DNA of 64,000 nucleotides from Proteobacteria bacterium UBA6503. Lineage in GTDB: Bacteria > Pseudomonadota > Alphaproteobacteria > UBA1280 > UBA6503. Made by a program: the position numbers and the translations under genes. Numbering within the stretch: position 1 is the first letter of the stretch; each line of letters opens with the position of its first letter. Below, piece by piece: positions 60,387 to 63,727 of the stretch. Location: assembly GCA_002436405.1 (NCBI GenBank), contig DJLZ01000001.1, forward strand, positions 58,056 through 122,055, written 5' to 3'. Below the pieces are notes generated by a model that ran no database searches, was not told where the DNA came from, and saw only the letters and a list, made by a program, of their open reading frames with translations.

Positions 60387-62528
60387 TTATCGCTTATCGC
60401 GAATGCGTTTTTCAGCAAGGCGAAGTGCTAGTGCTGTGGTCTCAGCGTCGCGGATACCTTGGTACCAGACGACAGGTTGCTTCGACCAGTCTTCAGCACC
60501 GCTGCGCAAGTCCGGGCAAGCCGGCGCAACGCCACCGTTGTTATAGTGGTCAAACCACACAACAGAAACGTCACTCTCGCACAGCTGCTGCATAATGAAA
60601 CCAGCGTCCCAGTCGCCCCAGTTTACTGCACCCGAAAGGGCAGCAACTGCATTAAGCGAACGCAGAACTTCGGTCCACCAGCCCTGAACGTCATAGCCGT
60701 TGTTACAGCGAGACGGGCTAGGCAGCATACCCTCGAGGGCCCCATATACATTTTCAGGGATACCGTTCGAGTGCACAATCAGCACACAGCGTGGGTCGCG
60801 CCGCAGGATGGAAGCGGCAGCGGCAAGCGCATACTGCGCCACACCACTACAACTACCGGAAACGTCCACCATGAGGAGTTTCGTTCCCGACTGCAGCTCA
60901 TTGCGGCGGATGCGCGCAAGGTTACCACGCTTCACTTGCATCTCTTTGACAAGCTTTTCGCCGTCGAGACGCCGTGAGGCTTCTTCACCGCAGAGATCCA
61001 TCACCGTCAAAATGGCATTGAGGCGACGCTCAATTTCACCCGACAGCTTAGGCTCTACATTACCGACTCGCGCATCGAGACTCTCGATGGAAGCATGCAC
61101 ACCGCCGTGTGAATAGGTGGAAGTACGAATACTGCCGGAGTTACTCTCTCCGTCATCTTCGTCCAGCACTTCTTCAGCACGTTCAATGGCATCTTCAATG
61201 GCGCCAGCTTGGTTCTTGCCCTCCTCTTCGAGCTCGAGCTCTTTGAGGAGTTCACGCAGTTTTTCACGAAGCTCTTTGTCAATCTCCTGCTGGGGGACTT
61301 CCTCTTCAGCTTGCTCTTCTTCCTTGAGCACCTCTTCGTCCTCTTCTTCCTGCACAACGGCAGTTTCAGATTCAGGTTCGGGCTCAGGCTCAGGAGCAGC
61401 AGCTTCAGGTTCGTCCTCAGTAGGTTCTTCTTCGACAACCTCAACGACTTCAACCTTTTCAGGCTTCGCATCGCTTTCGGGCTCTTCGTCAGTGGGCTGC
61501 GCATGCGCAACCTTCTGCTCTTCTTGAGGCTCATCTTGCTCGTCGAGCTTTACCACATCGTCTGCGTCAAGGTCAGAGGGCTGACTTTCTTCAGACTTAT
61601 TGGGGCCAGACTCTTCAGGCTCTTGAGGTTCTTCTTCAGACTCGACCTTCTGGTTATCTTTCACACCATCTTTGTCGGGTTTATCGGACGGTTTTCCGTC
61701 TTTCGACTTCATTCGTCCCTTGAAGAACTTCCTGAGCAACCACGCCAGAAGCGCGGCCAGCAAAGCAATGATAAGCATTTCCATCCAGTATTCTTGGATG
61801 AATGCCCACACCGCCTGCAAGATGCCGAGGATGTCAAATTCGCCGATGCCAATGGCGGCACCAACAGAAGTGATTGAAATAAGCAGCGCCGTCCAGACGA
61901 ACACACGGAACGTCATCAACGTATGACGAACCCAACCATAGCGGCTGTATTCGTCATTCAGCTCCCAAGGCTTGCGAATCGGCACGTCCTCCAGTTCAAC
62001 TGGCGGGACGATACGCGTATTCTCAATCTTGAACGCTGCCGACTGCTTGTAAGCGCGGTCAACCGTTTTGGTGATGGCCGCCGGCTGGCGAACCTTCTCA
62101 GGCTTTTTGGCCGGCCAGTTATGGCCCAAATAGGCTACCAGACGGTCAATTTCCTTTACGGTGATAACCTTCGGGCGTTGCCACATCTGGGTTTCGTAGG
62201 CGGCTGCCAAAAACACCAGCGCTACAGCGTTGGTATCTTTACCGGCAAACGGACTACCGTCATAACCGCCAAACTGCACGTGCCAAAGGGCTTCTTCGCA
62301 GCGGCGACCATCCCAGTTGGGCTGTTCTGCAAGGGCGCGGATATTCCGCAGCACAGGCAAAAACCCTTGGTTTGAGCTTTGCGCCAAAAGCTTATACGCT
62401 TCGGGCATTTTGGTGATGTACTCATCGGTCTTGGTTTTCGCAAGTCGGGGCGGCGGCAAGCGCTTCCGCTTCTTACGTTTACGAGAGGTTTTATCCTTCC
62501 CGAAACCGAACCAATCAAGAATGCTCAT
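60387..62528 (-). CDS. Membrane-anchored protein with an acidic low-complexity linker and a C-terminal VWA-like (MIDAS DxSxS) domain, 713 aa, compositionally foreign
   Basis: The parts, in residue numbering, are:
- a basic patch SRKRKKRKRLPPPR (aa 15-28)
- a ~170-aa unrecognised domain
- hydrophobic helices at aa ~205-266
- a Glu/Asp/Pro-rich region at aa ~275-465
- GEKLVKEMQVKRGNLARIRRNELQSGTKLLMVDVSGSCSG (a beta-strand plus the DxSxS MIDAS start), as in NorD/CbbO/CoxE-type VWA proteins

The gene is GC-rich with AAG/CTG codons. Confidence 0.65.
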   Translation of the reverse strand: MSILDWFGFGKDKTSRKRKKRKRLPPPRLAKTKTDEYITKMPEAYKLLAQSSNQGFLPVLRNIRALAEQPNWDGRRCEEALWHVQFGGYDGSPFAGKDTNAVALVFLAAAYETQMWQRPKVITVKEIDRLVAYLGHNWPAKKPEKVRQPAAITKTVDRAYKQSAAFKIENTRIVPPVELEDVPIRKPWELNDEYSRYGWVRHTLMTFRVFVWTALLISITSVGAAIGIGEFDILGILQAVWAFIQEYWMEMLIIALLAALLAWLLRKFFKGRMKSKDGKPSDKPDKDGVKDNQKVESEEEPQEPEESGPNKSEESQPSDLDADDVVKLDEQDEPQEEQKVAHAQPTDEEPESDAKPEKVEVVEVVEEEPTEDEPEAAAPEPEPEPESETAVVQEEEDEEVLKEEEQAEEEVPQQEIDKELREKLRELLKELELEEEGKNQAGAIEDAIERAEEVLDEDDGESNSGSIRTSTYSHGGVHASIESLDARVGNVEPKLSGEIERRLNAILTVMDLCGEEASRRLDGEKLVKEMQVKRGNLARIRRNELQSGTKLLMVDVSGSCSGVAQYALAAAASILRRDPRCVLIVHSNGIPENVYGALEGMLPSPSRCNNGYDVQGWWTEVLRSLNAVAALSGAVNWGDWDAGFIMQQLCESDVSVVWFDHYNNGGVAPACPDLRSGAEDWSKQPVVWYQGIRDAETTALALRLAEKRIRDKR

Positions 62529-62590
62529 AGCACTCTCCTGTGTTAGGTGAGATAGAAAGTAAAAAAGAAAGAAAAATACGAAGATAAAAT
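62529..62590 (-). promoter_or_regulatory. Pyrimidine-rich 5' leader, copy 2 of 3 (in front of the VWA-like gene)
   Basis: The minus strand reads ATTTTATCTTCGTATTTTTCTTTCTTTTTTACTTTCTATCTCACCTAACACAGGAGAGTGCT then ATG. Confidence 0.55.
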
Positions 62591-62704
62591 GATGGCCACA
62601 TCATGCCCCAAAAGCAGAATGTATACAAGTTTTAATCGGGCATTTTTGGCAAAAAACTTGGTGGTTTTTCTTGTATTTTTTATAAATAAATTCAATGCGC
62701 TAAC

Positions 62705-62740
62705 AAAAAAAGACCCCCACCAAAATGGTGAGGGTCTTTT
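62705..62740 (-). terminator. Rho-independent terminator between the AAA+ gene and the VWA-like gene
   Basis: AGACCCCCACC / GGTGAGGGTCT stem (one mismatch) with a 5-nt loop. A T7 run follows on the minus strand. It lies 20 nt after the AAA+ stop at 62760. Confidence 0.75.
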
Positions 62741-62759
62741 CATTCGTTATTGAGGTCTC

Positions 62760-63662
62760 TTACTTGACCGGGAACGTCTGCTTCAGGAGGCCCCAAAGGC
62801 CATCCATCGTGCGGTCGTTCTTGGTCAGCTCGATACCCTTGGCAGCACTCTTGGCAGCCCAGCCGGCAACCACATAGCGCACATTGCGCGTGCAGCTCAG
62901 CTGGTCCTGCAGGCGCAGGTTGACCAGTTCTTCGACGAGGCGCGAAAGCTCCTGCGGCGAAAGGAAGGTCCCTTCTCGGTTGGCAACGTCATTGGCAACC
63001 GCATAGGCCACCTTGACAACGCCTTTGAGCTCAGGCTTTTCGAAGCCTTCCTTGGTCTGCAACCAACCAGTGACCAATTCGATCACCTTGCCAGCGGGCA
63101 GCGGCTTCATGTACAGACGACGCAGCCGGCGGCTGAGAGCATCCGACAGAGGGCGCATACCGTTCGAGGTAATCAGAAAGACCACATTGTCGAGCACGAT
63201 GGTATCGTGAACACCCGGCTTCAGCGGCACACGGCCAGTCTGCAGCACGTCGAGAAGCAAGTTCTCAACACGTTCGGGGGTCTTGTCGATTTCATCGAGG
63301 ACGACGATCACGGGCTTGTCGGGCGTAGCGTCACGGCTGGCCTTGGCAACATGTGCCAGGATACCAGGCAGGCGTGCATTTTCAGCCTCACCCGCAACCG
63401 CAGCAACCACGTCAACACCGGTAAACAGCTCGTCGCTGTCAGACCAGGCGTGGAACAGATGGAACAGCAGCTGGCTGTTGAGAGCTTTGGCCAGGTATTC
63501 ACCCAACGCCGACTTACCCGCACCGGGCAAACCTTCGATGAGCATAGCGCGAACGCCGCCTGTTTGGCTAAGCAGACCGCCCAGCGCAAGTTCTTCTTGT
63601 TCACGAAGGTAATACCCTTCGGTGCGCATCCGTTCAAGGACGCTTTTGACTGAGATTGACAT
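62760..63662 (-). CDS. MoxR-like / AAA_5-type AAA+ ATPase, ~300 aa, compositionally foreign
   Basis: Walker A GLPGAGKS, Walker B VIVVLDEIDK, sensor-1 FLITSN and the Arg-finger region SDALSRRLRRL. A hand-counted 100-nt sample (63301..63400) has 63 G+C. The track ORF starts at 63674. I prefer the ATG at 63662, which has a GGAG 6 nt upstream, like the other two leaders. Confidence 0.8.
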   Translation of the reverse strand: MSISVKSVLERMRTEGYYLREQEELALGGLLSQTGGVRAMLIEGLPGAGKSALGEYLAKALNSQLLFHLFHAWSDSDELFTGVDVVAAVAGEAENARLPGILAHVAKASRDATPDKPVIVVLDEIDKTPERVENLLLDVLQTGRVPLKPGVHDTIVLDNVVFLITSNGMRPLSDALSRRLRRLYMKPLPAGKVIELVTGWLQTKEGFEKPELKGVVKVAYAVANDVANREGTFLSPQELSRLVEELVNLRLQDQLSCTRNVRYVVAGWAAKSAAKGIELTKNDRTMDGLWGLLKQTFPVK

Positions 63663-63727
63663 AGTCAACTCCATGATTTGAGCAAAGGAAAAAGAGAAAG
63701 AGGAAAACAGTTAGAAAGAGAATAAGT
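63663..63727 (-). promoter_or_regulatory. Pyrimidine-rich 5' leader, copy 3 of 3 (in front of the AAA+ gene)
   Basis: The minus strand reads CACTTATTCTCTTTCTAACTGTTTTCCTCTTTCTCTTTTTCCTTTGCTCAAATCATGGAGTTGACT then ATG. Confidence 0.5.

What the first reader, a model, noticed from the sequence alone, without database searches (positions are those of the whole stretch)
60387..63674. Foreign-composition MoxR-type AAA+ ATPase plus a membrane-anchored, acidic-linker VWA-like protein: a two-gene module of unknown function
Seen:
- The two adjacent minus-strand genes are far more GC-rich than the surroundings. The AAA+ gene has 63 G+C per 100 nt, and the genes use AAG/CTG codons and carry many spurious antisense ORFs.
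- The 300-aa protein has Walker A GLPGAGKS, Walker B VVLDEID and an Arg-finger region.
- The 713-aa protein has an unrecognised N-domain, two or three TM helices, a ~190-residue Glu/Asp/Pro tract, and a C-terminal KLLMVDVSGS MIDAS-type start.
- The genes are not one operon. A strong terminator (62705..62740) and a separate leader lie between them.

Established: MoxR/AAA+ proteins work with VWA partners (RavA-ViaA, NorQ-NorD, CbbQ-CbbO, CobS-CobT, BchI-BchD). An acidic linker before the VWA domain is typical of BchD/CobT. Comparative-genomic work has proposed vWA-MoxR modules as cores of NTP-dependent conflict systems.

Inference:
- The TM-anchored architecture fits none of the named pairs.
- Acquisition from a higher-GC donor also sets it apart.
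- It lies beside a broken XRE-MTase gene.
- Taken together, this points to an uncharacterised membrane-associated remodelling or conflict module.
Basis: partly seen in the sequence, partly recalled or inferred. Interest (0 to 1): 0.72.

Follow-up and report, generated by a model that had tools for sequence, protein, structure and literature searches.

The report
Phage-type AAA+ motor and membrane-anchored VWA adaptor
Two adjacent genes in a marine Magnetococcales genome encode an ATP-driven motor and a membrane-tethered partner protein from an unnamed family otherwise found almost only on uncultivated phage DNA; it is a new branch of a known kind of chaperone pair, not a defence system.

Summary
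There is a 300-aa AAA+ ATPase (62760-63662, minus) and a 713-aa protein (60387-62528, minus). The larger protein has a basic N-terminus, an N-domain, two hydrophobic helices, a 192-residue tract of 40% Asp+Glu, and a C-terminal DVSGSC domain. A conserved terminator lies between them.

The ATPase belongs to the AAA_5/MoxR clade. The C-domain is a divergent CoxE-like VWA domain. No Pfam, NCBIfam, PHROG or PADLOC model recognises the window protein; sub-threshold VWA_CoxE hits in relatives and a confident structure model support the assignment.

An exhaustive search found 332 representative relatives of the C-domain. In all 12 contexts examined, the ATPase gene lies directly upstream. Most contexts are phage-like or mobile contigs with soluble partners. 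The membrane-anchored chromosomal form is rare.

In Magnetococcales the pair sits between rpoD and ndk in three lineages. It has diverged in step with neighbouring housekeeping genes and is under purifying selection (dN/dS 0.07-0.17).

There is no third component, no effector domain and no defence neighbourhood.

Best reading: a phage-derived, domesticated motor-adaptor pair that works like CobS-CobT or midasin at the inner membrane. The client is unknown.

The parts
62760..63662 (-). AAA+ ATPase gene (300 aa; an upstream in-frame ATG at 63674 would give 304 aa). AAA_5/MoxR clade.
   Evidence: The ORF is. Pfam AAA_5 scores 48.1 bits against a cutoff of 22. All 40 relatives match AAA_5, 35 match bpMoxR and 24 match AAA_3. 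The family profile's best match among solved structures is the midasin AAA domains, E 1.8e-21. The start is placed from the GGAG before the second ATG and from the L002 ortholog.
63510..63533 (-). Walker A, GLPGAGKS
   Evidence: G48, P50, G51, G53 and K54 are invariant in 40 relatives.
63285..63305 (-). Walker B, VVLDEID
   Evidence: D127 and E128 are invariant.
63117..63170 (-). Sensor-1 (TSN, residues 169-171) and the arginine cluster SRRLRR (181-186), which is the candidate Arg finger.
   Evidence: R182, R183 and R186 are invariant. T169, S170 and N171 are conserved in at least 90% of sequences.
63743..63768 (-). Terminator-like hairpin upstream of the ATPase gene, at the end of the rpoD-proximal spacer.
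   Evidence: It is conserved in L002.
62703..62740 (-). Intrinsic terminator between the two genes.
   Evidence: It folds at -28.3 kcal/mol, z = -6.0. It is present in L004 and L002, with some pairs kept through changes.
62529..62650 (-). Conserved leader of the 713-aa gene. It carries the palindrome TTGTATACA (62620-62628), a conserved block TTTTGGGGCATGATGTG, a pyrimidine-rich run and the Shine-Dalgarno sequence GGAGAG.
   Evidence: Three-way alignment. The palindrome occurs twice in the window against 0.55 expected, so it is not significant on its own.
60387..62528 (-). Gene for the 713-aa membrane-anchored VWA-like adaptor.
   Evidence: The ORF is. Orthologs share 60-84% identity. It matches no Pfam, NCBIfam, PHROG or PADLOC family.
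61929..62528 (-). N-terminal region (residues 1-200). It has a basic stretch RKRKKRKRLPPPRL (residues 16-29) and an N-domain carrying the family motif ...VKEIDRLVAYLGHNWP.
   Evidence: Invariant columns are. An HMM of the phage-type N-termini finds this protein at E 1e-5 among all window ORFs, and also finds the L005, P0004 and P0181 partners.
61719..61928 (-). Hydrophobic hairpin (residues 201-270). TM1 is 207-229, an amphipathic stretch is 233-248, and TM2 is 251-265. RKFFKGRMKSK follows.
   Evidence: Hydropathy scan, sequence, and conservation in four orthologs. The topology (both ends cytoplasmic) is inferred from the positive-inside rule.
61143..61718 (-). Acidic linker (residues 271-462): 40% Asp+Glu, net charge -55. 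Its last part (416-462) is a conserved charged helix.
   Evidence: Its length and sequence vary between orthologs. Its dN is about twice that of the flanking domains.
60885..61142 (-). Helical, Arg-rich segment before the VWA fold (residues 463-548; conserved S.R.DG..LV.E...R..L.R.RR.E). It is a candidate ring-engaging element.
   Evidence: Invariant R, R and E residues. pLDDT is low just before beta1. The sub-threshold VWA_CoxE hits in relatives cover the corresponding region together with the DxSGS motif. The role is inferred by analogy with the CobT shaft.
60390..60884 (-). VWA-like domain (residues 549-713). DVSGSC is at 555-560 (60849-60866), HSNG at 586-589 (60762-60773), GDWDAG at 638-643 (60600-60617) and WFDHY at 658-662.
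   Evidence: The AlphaFold2 model has pLDDT 88.2 and pTM 0.84, with the secondary-structure order b1-a1-b2-b3-a-a-b4-a4-b5-a5-b6-a6. The best viral structural matches are VWA proteins with probabilities 0.98-0.99. 20 of 66 relatives match Pfam VWA_CoxE below threshold.
60346..60373 (-). Terminator after the 713-aa gene.
   Evidence: 12-bp stem with 8 G-C pairs, followed by TTTTGTTTTC.

Best explanation
What it is:
- The two genes encode a motor-adaptor pair.
- The motor is a hexamer-forming AAA+ ATPase of the AAA_5/MoxR clade.
- The adaptor has a C-terminal, divergent CoxE-like VWA domain that is proposed to hold a metal site for gripping a client protein.

Where it comes from:
- The pair belongs to an unnamed two-gene family that otherwise lives on uncultivated phage and mobile-element DNA.
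- An ancestor of this Magnetococcales group captured it, and it has been kept at the rpoD-ndk locus under purifying selection.
- In this lineage the adaptor gained a two-helix membrane hairpin and a very long acidic linker.

Proposed mechanism (inferred):
- Both ends of the adaptor face the cytoplasm.
- The N-domain and the Arg-rich segment just before the VWA fold bind the ATPase ring.
- The VWA metal site binds an acidic group of a membrane-proximal client.
- ATP hydrolysis remodels, assembles or loads that client, as in CobS-CobT, midasin and CoxD-CoxE.

Shown versus inferred:
- Shown: the domain assignments, strict gene pairing, phage-rich distribution, vertical retention and selective constraint.
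- Inferred: the topology, the contact surfaces, the metal site and the membrane location of the client. The identity of the client is unknown.
For: ATPase:
- AAA_5 is above its Pfam threshold, and all catalytic motifs are present and conserved.
- The family profile aligns through Walker B, the pre-sensor-1 region and the Arg cluster with midasin AAA domains.

VWA domain:
- A confident model has the VWA order of strands and helices.
- The top viral structural matches are VWA proteins, including Thermus phage P74-26 gp48.
- Relatives give sub-threshold VWA_CoxE hits.
- D-x-S-G-S, G-D-x-D and a later D are invariant or nearly so.

Pairing:
- The ATPase gene is directly upstream of the VWA gene in 12 of 12 lineages, whether the locus was found through the ATPase or through the VWA domain.
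- No third gene is conserved.

Phage origin:
- Contexts include a terminase and a replication initiator, and RecT, a PD-(D/E)XK nuclease, Dam, DnaB-primase and SSB.
- Others are 205-263 kb contigs densely packed with unknown ORFs and a type IV CRISPR element.
- Only one pattern hit was found in 185,579 species-representative genomes, on a 4-kb MAG contig.
- Cultured phage P74-26 has a distantly related gp49 (AAA) and gp48 (VWA) pair in its replication module.

Domestication:
- The same locus is occupied in three lineages.
- Against L004, dS is 0.57 for the ATPase gene and 1.03 for the 713-aa gene. The flanks give 0.52 for ndk and 1.28 for ahpC.
- dN/dS is 0.07-0.17 overall and 0.05-0.10 for the C-domain.

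Mechanistic analogy:
- In CobST, a segment preceding the VWA domain inserts into the CobS ring, the CobT N-domain binds the CobS lid, and the client binds beside the MIDAS (preprint 10.64898/2026.07.21.739949).
Against: - The window protein itself matches no VWA model. Relatives match VWA_CoxE only locally and below threshold.
- The structural search against solved structures gave nothing better than E 0.02.
- The fourth MIDAS ligand (Thr/Asn) could not be located. The invariant Cys and HSNG are not classical MIDAS features.
- The two genes are separated by a strong, conserved terminator, whereas the phage versions overlap. Their stoichiometric co-expression here is therefore not assured.
- No client, no interaction and no membrane localisation have been shown.
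- The direction of transfer (phage to cell) rests on distribution, not on a rooted tree.
Confidence: 0.6

Rival explanations
1. The pair is a conflict module. It is either an anti-phage defence system of the vWA-MoxR kind or a phage-derived superinfection-exclusion device held at the membrane.
For: - vWA-MoxR cores are known in NTP-dependent conflict systems (PMC7159879).
- The family is phage-borne, and one carrier also holds type IV CRISPR genes.
- The composition is foreign.
- Membrane anchoring would suit exclusion at the point of DNA entry.
Against: - None of the third components that define those systems is present (VMAP, iSTAND, beta-propeller, FtsH). No effector is fused after the VWA domain, which ends the protein.
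- PADLOC hits are negligible: 17 bits for the ATPase, and 1 of 26 for the VWA domain.
- The neighbours are dnaG, rpoD and ndk.
- The pair evolves slowly and in step with housekeeping genes. That pattern is unlike typical defence genes.
Confidence: 0.12
2. The pair is a dedicated metal-centre maturation chaperone, like CoxD-CoxE or the CobST and BchID chelatase motors. It would insert a metal into a specific membrane-associated enzyme.
For: - The only named family the VWA domain approaches is CoxE.
- 12 of 40 ATPase relatives touch the Mg_chelatase model.
- The layout of N-domain, flexible acidic linker and VWA matches CobT and BchD (established knowledge).
- An invariant Cys and His next to the DxSxS motif could bind a transition metal.
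Against: - No CobS, CobT, CobT_C, BchD or CoxD/E equivalog model matches.
- No CobN/BchH-like or CO-dehydrogenase gene lies within 10 kb.
- Most family members are on phages, where such a housekeeping client is not obvious.
- This overlaps the best explanation and differs only in the kind of client.
Confidence: 0.15
3. The pair is an inert remnant of an old prophage or mobile element with no present function.
For: - Atypical composition.
- A phage-type family.
- The neighbouring gene carries a nonsense codon.
Against: - Both reading frames are intact in three lineages.
- dN/dS is 0.07-0.17, and the ATPase is 94% identical to L004 at the protein level, close to ndk at 97%.
- All catalytic motifs are kept.
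- No other phage genes lie nearby.
Confidence: 0.03

Closest known systems
CobS-CobT (motor and adaptor of aerobic cobaltochelatase, including the viral cobST gene pairs)
   Same: [quoted passage not shown]
- Two-gene clusters of this kind are common in tailed viruses (PMC8651126).
- The adaptor engages the ring through a segment preceding the VWA domain.
   Different: - No CobS, CobS_N, CobT or CobT_C model matches.
- There is only a weak hit to the phage 'porphyrin biosynthesis' family phrog_249, E 8e-4.
- No CobN gene is nearby.
- The adaptor here has transmembrane helices, and its metal-site motif carries an invariant Cys.
Thermus phage P74-26 (and P23-45) gp49 AAA ATPase with gp48 VWA protein
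   Same: - Adjacent genes in the same order and of the same sizes (270 aa, then 563 aa), in a phage replication module.
- The ATPase profiles match (hhalign probability 92%, E 5e-7).
- gp48 is the second-best structural match of the C-domain model (probability 0.98).
   Different: - Sequence similarity of the VWA parts is only local (47 columns around DxSGS, E 0.004).
- tblastn finds no relative of the window proteins in 50,697 phage records.
- gp48 is soluble.
- To my knowledge the function of gp48 and gp49 has not been determined.
CoxD-CoxE (MoxR-type ATPase and VWA protein for maturation of the CO-dehydrogenase metal centre)
   Same: VWA_CoxE is the only named family approached by the C-domain relatives. 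As in CoxE-type proteins, a helical extension precedes the VWA fold.
   Different: All hits are below the Pfam threshold and cover profile positions 43-97 only. There are no cox genes in the neighbourhood.
Midasin/Rea1 (eukaryotic ribosome-assembly AAA+ protein)
   Same: AAA_5 modules are the best solved-structure match of the ATPase profile. Midasin also has an Asp/Glu-rich linker followed by a C-terminal MIDAS/VWA domain (established knowledge). This pair is the same parts list in two polypeptides.
   Different: Midasin has six fused AAA modules in one 5,000-residue eukaryotic protein, with no membrane anchor. The resemblance is of design, not of orthology.
RavA-ViaA
   Same: A MoxR-class ATPase with a VWA partner that acts at the inner membrane on respiratory complexes (PMC9489729 and PMC10585395, listed).
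   Different: No RavA or ViaA model matches. To my knowledge ViaA is a peripheral membrane protein rather than an integral one, and RavA is larger and carries a LARA domain.
vWA-MoxR ternary conflict systems (Kaur et al. 2020, PMC7159879)
   Same: A MoxR-clade ATPase with a vWA protein. The ATPase weakly matches the bpMoxR model (21 bits, below the cutoff of 27). Some of those systems have transmembrane segments.
   Different: No third component, no effector domains and no defence-island context.

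Membership tests
AAA+ ATPase, AAA_5/MoxR clade | Walker A, Walker B, sensor-1 and Arg-finger motifs are present and conserved. | tested here: met
   GLPGAGKS, VVLDEID, TSN and SRRLRR are present. They are invariant or at least 90% conserved in 40 relatives.
AAA+ ATPase, AAA_5/MoxR clade | Match to Pfam AAA_5 above the curated threshold. | tested here: met
   48.1 bits against a cutoff of 22, covering 2-138 of 139 profile positions. All 40 relatives match.
MoxR proper (Pfam AAA_3) | Match to AAA_3 above the curated threshold. | tested here: not met
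   19.1 bits against a cutoff of 27. 24 of 40 relatives match at E <= 0.001.
AAA+ ATPase, AAA_5/MoxR clade | Helix-2 insert and pre-sensor-1 beta-hairpin seen in a structure. | not tested
The profile aligns with midasin through the GRVPxxPG segment between Walker B and sensor-1, which is suggestive only.
AAA+ ATPase, AAA_5/MoxR clade | Genomic pairing with a VWA-domain partner. | tested here: met
   12 of 12 lineages.
VWA domain (CoxE type) | DxSxS metal-site motif at the end of the first strand. | tested here: met
   DVSGS lies at residues 555-559, directly after strand E61-67 of the model. D, S and S are invariant in 66 relatives.
VWA domain (CoxE type) | Complete MIDAS: a further Thr/Asn and an Asp after strand 4. 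| tested here: inconclusive
   An invariant G-D-x-D follows strand E143-149. No conserved Thr or Asn lies in the expected loop. An invariant HSNG after strand 2 and a Cys after DxSGS are non-classical.
VWA domain (CoxE type) | Alpha/beta fold with the VWA order of elements. | tested here: met
   The model has pLDDT 88.2, with order b1-a1-b2-b3-a-a-b4-a4-b5-a5-b6-a6.
VWA domain (CoxE type) | Significant structural match to known VWA domains. | tested here: inconclusive
   Against viral predicted structures, the two best hits (one of them an annotated VWA protein) have probabilities 0.99 and 0.98 but E values of 6e-4 and 1.5e-3 and TM-scores of about 0.4. Against solved structures there is nothing below E 0.02; a calcium-channel alpha2-delta VWA domain and a TFIIH subunit appear among a mix of flavodoxin-like folds.
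VWA domain (CoxE type) | Match to a Pfam VWA model above the curated threshold. | tested here: not met
   The window protein gives no hit. The best relative scores 25.6 bits against a cutoff of 26.4, over profile positions 44-97 only.
CobS-CobT cobaltochelatase subunits | Match to CobS/CobT family models, and a CobN partner. | tested here: not met
   No such Pfam or NCBIfam hit at E <= 1. No CobN-like gene lies within 10 kb.
vWA-MoxR ternary conflict systems | A conserved third component (VMAP, iSTAND, beta-propeller or FtsH) and effector domains on the vWA protein. | tested here: not met
   Neighbouring genes are unrelated across lineages. The VWA domain ends the protein. PADLOC is negative.
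RavA-ViaA | Match to RavA or ViaA family models. | tested here: not met
   No RavA or ViaA model is among the Pfam or NCBIfam hits of either protein.

The most novel reading that the evidence does not exclude
The family as a whole (332 representative clusters, absent from Pfam, PHROGs, NCBIfam and PADLOC, and with no close cultured-phage member) may be a previously unrecognised early-gene motor-adaptor system of marine and soil phages that remodels a specific host or phage complex. The Magnetococcales genes would then be a rare exaptation: the adaptor became an integral membrane protein and took on a housekeeping role in the cell. The invariant Cys and His beside the DxSxS motif would mark a new, transition-metal-binding variant of the MIDAS site.
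Probability: 0.25. Interest if true: 0.65.

Novelty: new variant of a known kind. Interest (0 to 1): 0.45.

Why it matters
AAA+/VWA motor-adaptor pairs recur across biology: chelatases, rubisco and nitric-oxide-reductase activases, ribosome assembly and virus tail assembly. For most of them the client is unknown.

This finding defines a sizeable, unnamed branch that is almost wholly phage-borne and always two genes. It also shows one clear case where a cell has kept the pair for a long time, under constraint as strong as on ndk, after turning the adaptor into a membrane protein.

That gives two things. The first is a family worth a database model, so that hundreds of hypothetical phage proteins can be named. 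The second is a tractable contrast, soluble phage form against membrane-anchored cellular form, for asking what such pairs act on.

It does not open a long-standing question, and the basic design is familiar.

Tried and rejected
- Whole-protein homology search was swamped by the acidic tract and returned only 4 proteins. It was repeated with the C-terminal 249 residues and then with an exhaustive profile search.
- The first structure model, from a 5-sequence alignment, was poor (pLDDT 65.6) and its fold search was meaningless. It was repeated with 26 trimmed sequences.
- A profile search of solved structures using full-length relatives hit only acidic low-complexity regions of eIF3c. The trimmed profile gave nothing.
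- tblastn of window and phage-type members against 50,697 phage records gave no match.
- Scans of species-representative genomes were limited to exact peptide patterns. The first scan found nothing and the second found one 4-kb contig. Absence from cellular genomes is therefore suggestive, not proven.
- I looked for a conserved third gene beside the pair in phage loci. Only the two closely related TARA phages share their small neighbours.
- I looked for a tRNA or known RNA next to the module as an integration mark and found none.
- Recent horizontal transfer was rejected as the cause of the GC excess because the pair has diverged in step with its flanks.
- The weak NCBIfam MadB_ATPase hit (36 bits against a cutoff of 475) and the weak PADLOC mad8 and mad2 hits were judged to be generic P-loop and methyltransferase similarity.
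- The organism of the second chromosomal lineage (P0010) could not be named.

Full report
**Source and genes**

The window matches a Magnetococcales metagenome-assembled genome (GCA_002707865.1, contig PAOA01000020.1). It differs from the public record at 20 positions in the 13.6 kb compared.

Both minus-strand ORFs exist. The ATPase ORF can be read from 63674 (304 aa). The conserved start is the ATG at 63662 (300 aa). It has a GGAG eight bases upstream, and it is the only start present in the L002 ortholog.

**Composition**

- The ATPase gene has GC 0.580 and GC3 0.679.
- The 713-aa gene has GC 0.541 and GC3 0.571.
- The window is 0.475 overall, and neighbouring genes have GC3 of 0.38-0.49.
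- Only 0.1% of equal-sized windows reach the ATPase gene's GC.
- AAG and CTG preferences are real.

**The ATPase**

Pfam AAA_5 is matched above threshold over the whole model. Of 40 relatives, all match AAA_5, 35 match bpMoxR, 24 match AAA_3 and 12 match Mg_chelatase. No CobS, NorQ/CbbQ or RavA model matches.

Walker A, Walker B, sensor-1 and an arginine cluster are present and conserved. A profile of the family finds midasin AAA modules as its best match among solved structures (E 1.8e-21, summed over several modules). The alignment runs through Walker B, the GRVP..PG segment and the Arg cluster. The ATPase therefore sits in the AAA_5/MoxR/chelatase clade without belonging to a named subfamily.

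**The 713-aa protein**

No Pfam, NCBIfam, PHROG or PADLOC model recognises it. Four orthologs (60-84% identical) define the parts:

- A basic N-terminus (RKRKKRKRLPPP).
- A conserved N-domain.
- Two hydrophobic helices (207-229 and 251-265) with an amphipathic stretch between them.
- A variable tract (271-462) of 40% Asp+Glu with net charge -55.
- A highly conserved C-terminal 250 residues.

An exhaustive profile search with the C-terminal region found 332 representative proteins at E <= 0.001. Most are 400-600 aa with the domain at the C-terminus. Across 66 of them, D-x-S-G-S-C, the N of HSNG and G-D are invariant. The H of HSNG, the second D of GDxD and a later D are conserved in at least 90%.

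Evidence on whether the C-terminal domain is a VWA domain:

- Twenty of the 66 give hits to Pfam VWA_CoxE. All hits examined in detail are sub-threshold and cover only the helix before strand 1 plus the DxSGS motif.
- With a 26-sequence trimmed alignment, AlphaFold2 gave a confident model (pLDDT 88.2, pTM 0.84). Its elements run b1-a1-b2-b3-a-a-b4-a4-b5-a5-b6-a6, which is the VWA order.
- Against predicted viral structures, the top two matches had probabilities 0.99 and 0.98. One of them is the protein annotated as a von Willebrand type A domain in Thermus phage P74-26, and many annotated VWA proteins follow lower in the list.
- Against solved structures nothing was significant.

I conclude that the domain is VWA-like and nearest to the CoxE type. 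The metal site is not classical. The Thr/Asn ligand is not identifiable, and an invariant Cys and an HSNG motif lie where they could line the site.

**Pairing**

Contexts were fetched through the adaptor, through ATPase relatives and through the VWA motif alone. In all 12 lineages the ATPase gene lies directly upstream of the VWA gene on the same strand. This was confirmed with HMMs of both families. In two related phage lineages a small ORF lies between the two genes. No third gene is shared.

**Distribution**

Most carriers look like phages or mobile elements:

- One has a large terminase, a replication initiator and an exonuclease.
- The TARA contigs carry RecT, a PD-(D/E)XK nuclease, Dam, DnaB-primase and SSB.
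- Others are 205-263 kb contigs of densely packed unknown ORFs with a DNA ligase, or carry RNA ligase or GmrSD_N.
- One carries Csf1/Csf3 type IV CRISPR genes.

In these carriers the two genes overlap or abut, and the adaptor has no transmembrane helix.

Pattern scans of 185,579 species-representative genomes found one 4-kb MAG contig. No cultured phage in 50,697 records has a detectable relative by tblastn.

P74-26 has a more distant pair, gp49 (AAA, 270 aa) and gp48 (VWA, 563 aa), in its replication module. The ATPase profile matches gp49 at 92% probability. The VWA profile matches gp48 only locally.

Membrane-anchored adaptors occur only in three places:

- The Magnetococcales clade.
- A second chromosomal lineage beside queuosine genes, whose ATPase is the closest outgroup at 52% identity.
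- One further protein, P0181.

The N-domain of the window protein is recognisably the same as that of the phage-type proteins.

**History in Magnetococcales**

The order dnaG, rpoD, ATPase, adaptor, HTH-methyltransferase, UCP032817-like, ndk is seen in the source genome. The part from the ATPase gene onwards is kept in two related lineages, whose contigs begin at or just upstream of that gene.

Against L004, synonymous divergence is 0.57 for the ATPase gene and 1.03 for the adaptor gene. The flanks give 0.52 for ndk, 1.17 for DUF2125 and 1.28 for ahpC. The pair has therefore descended vertically since these lineages split.

dN/dS is 0.07-0.17 for both genes, and 0.05-0.10 for the C-domain.

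The GC3 excess of about 0.2 persists in all three lineages. Simple recent acquisition does not explain this, and I leave it unexplained.

**Transcription signals**

A strong hairpin with a T-run follows the ATPase gene and is kept in both orthologous loci. The roughly 110 nt before the adaptor's start codon are more conserved than the DNA just after the terminator. They hold a palindrome, TTGTATACA. Terminator-like hairpins also precede the ATPase gene and follow the adaptor gene. The promoter scan found nothing.

**Mechanism**

The closest worked example is CobS-CobT. There the CobT N-domain holds the CobS lid, a segment just before the VWA domain enters the ring on nucleotide binding, and the client CobN binds beside the MIDAS.

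The protein here has the same order of parts. It also has a conserved Arg-rich segment of low model confidence immediately before strand 1. Midasin has the same combination of AAA_5 modules, an acidic linker and a MIDAS domain.

I therefore propose a motor-adaptor pair acting on a client at the cytoplasmic face of the inner membrane. Both ends of the adaptor would be inside, which I infer from the basic N-terminus and the RKFFKGRMKSK flank. The client is unknown.

**Rivals**

- Defence or conflict module: there is no third component, no effector, no PADLOC signal, and the neighbours are housekeeping genes.
- Chelatase or metal-centre chaperone: this remains possible as a special case, but no family model or partner gene supports it.
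- Inert remnant: this is contradicted by the selective constraint.

**Verdict**

This is a new, unnamed, mainly phage-borne branch of the known AAA+/VWA pair design, with a rare domesticated, membrane-anchored form here. Interest is moderate.

Noticed in passing
window 59060-60259 (-), stop at 60167-60169; palindrome 60291-60318: The HTH(XRE)-class I SAM methyltransferase gene has one in-frame TAG at codon 31, where both orthologs have Gln. The stop is also in the public record. A 28-nt palindrome (TTAATATACCTCT-AA-AGAGGTATATTAA) lies about 30 nt upstream of its ATG and looks like an operator. This gene and the next one evolve much faster than the rest of the locus (52% and 67% protein identity to L004).
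   Followed up: partly
L001 8056-8854 (only its last 326 nt are in the window, 63675-64000): The roughly 800-nt spacer between rpoD and the ATPase gene has no called gene, yet it is about 73% identical to the L002 ortholog. It has longer conserved blocks and a hairpin (GCCCATTCGTGGGC). There is no conserved ORF and no Rfam match. It could be an unannotated RNA or a regulatory region.
   Followed up: partly
window 50387-64000: The window differs from GCA_002707865.1 at 20 scattered single bases in 13.6 kb. One is in the terminator stem (62732, where the window pairs better). One falls in each of the two genes, changing Leu to His in the ATPase and Tyr to His in the adaptor.
   Followed up: no
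window 60387-63674, L002 680-3874, L004 46-3249: The GC3 excess of the two genes (about +0.2 over neighbours) is kept in three lineages even though synonymous sites have diverged by 0.6-1.9. Simple recent foreign origin does not explain this.
   Followed up: partly
window 47737-49827 (+): The only other GC-rich patch of the window (0.57) is a prolyl oligopeptidase (S9) gene. A 479-aa antisense ORF over it has no family match.
   Followed up: partly
window 43596-43946 (+) and 52504-52576 (-): RNase P RNA (class A, 296.6 bits) and a tRNA gene.
   Followed up: no
L022 4391-7575: One carrier of the ATPase-VWA pair is a 43-kb element that also encodes Csf1, Csf3 and a PAPS-reductase-like protein, which is a type IV CRISPR-Cas neighbourhood.
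   Followed up: no
window 60849-60866 and 60762-60773: An invariant Cys directly after DxSGS and an invariant HSNG after strand 2 set this VWA branch apart from classical MIDAS sites. They may be extra metal ligands.
   Followed up: partly
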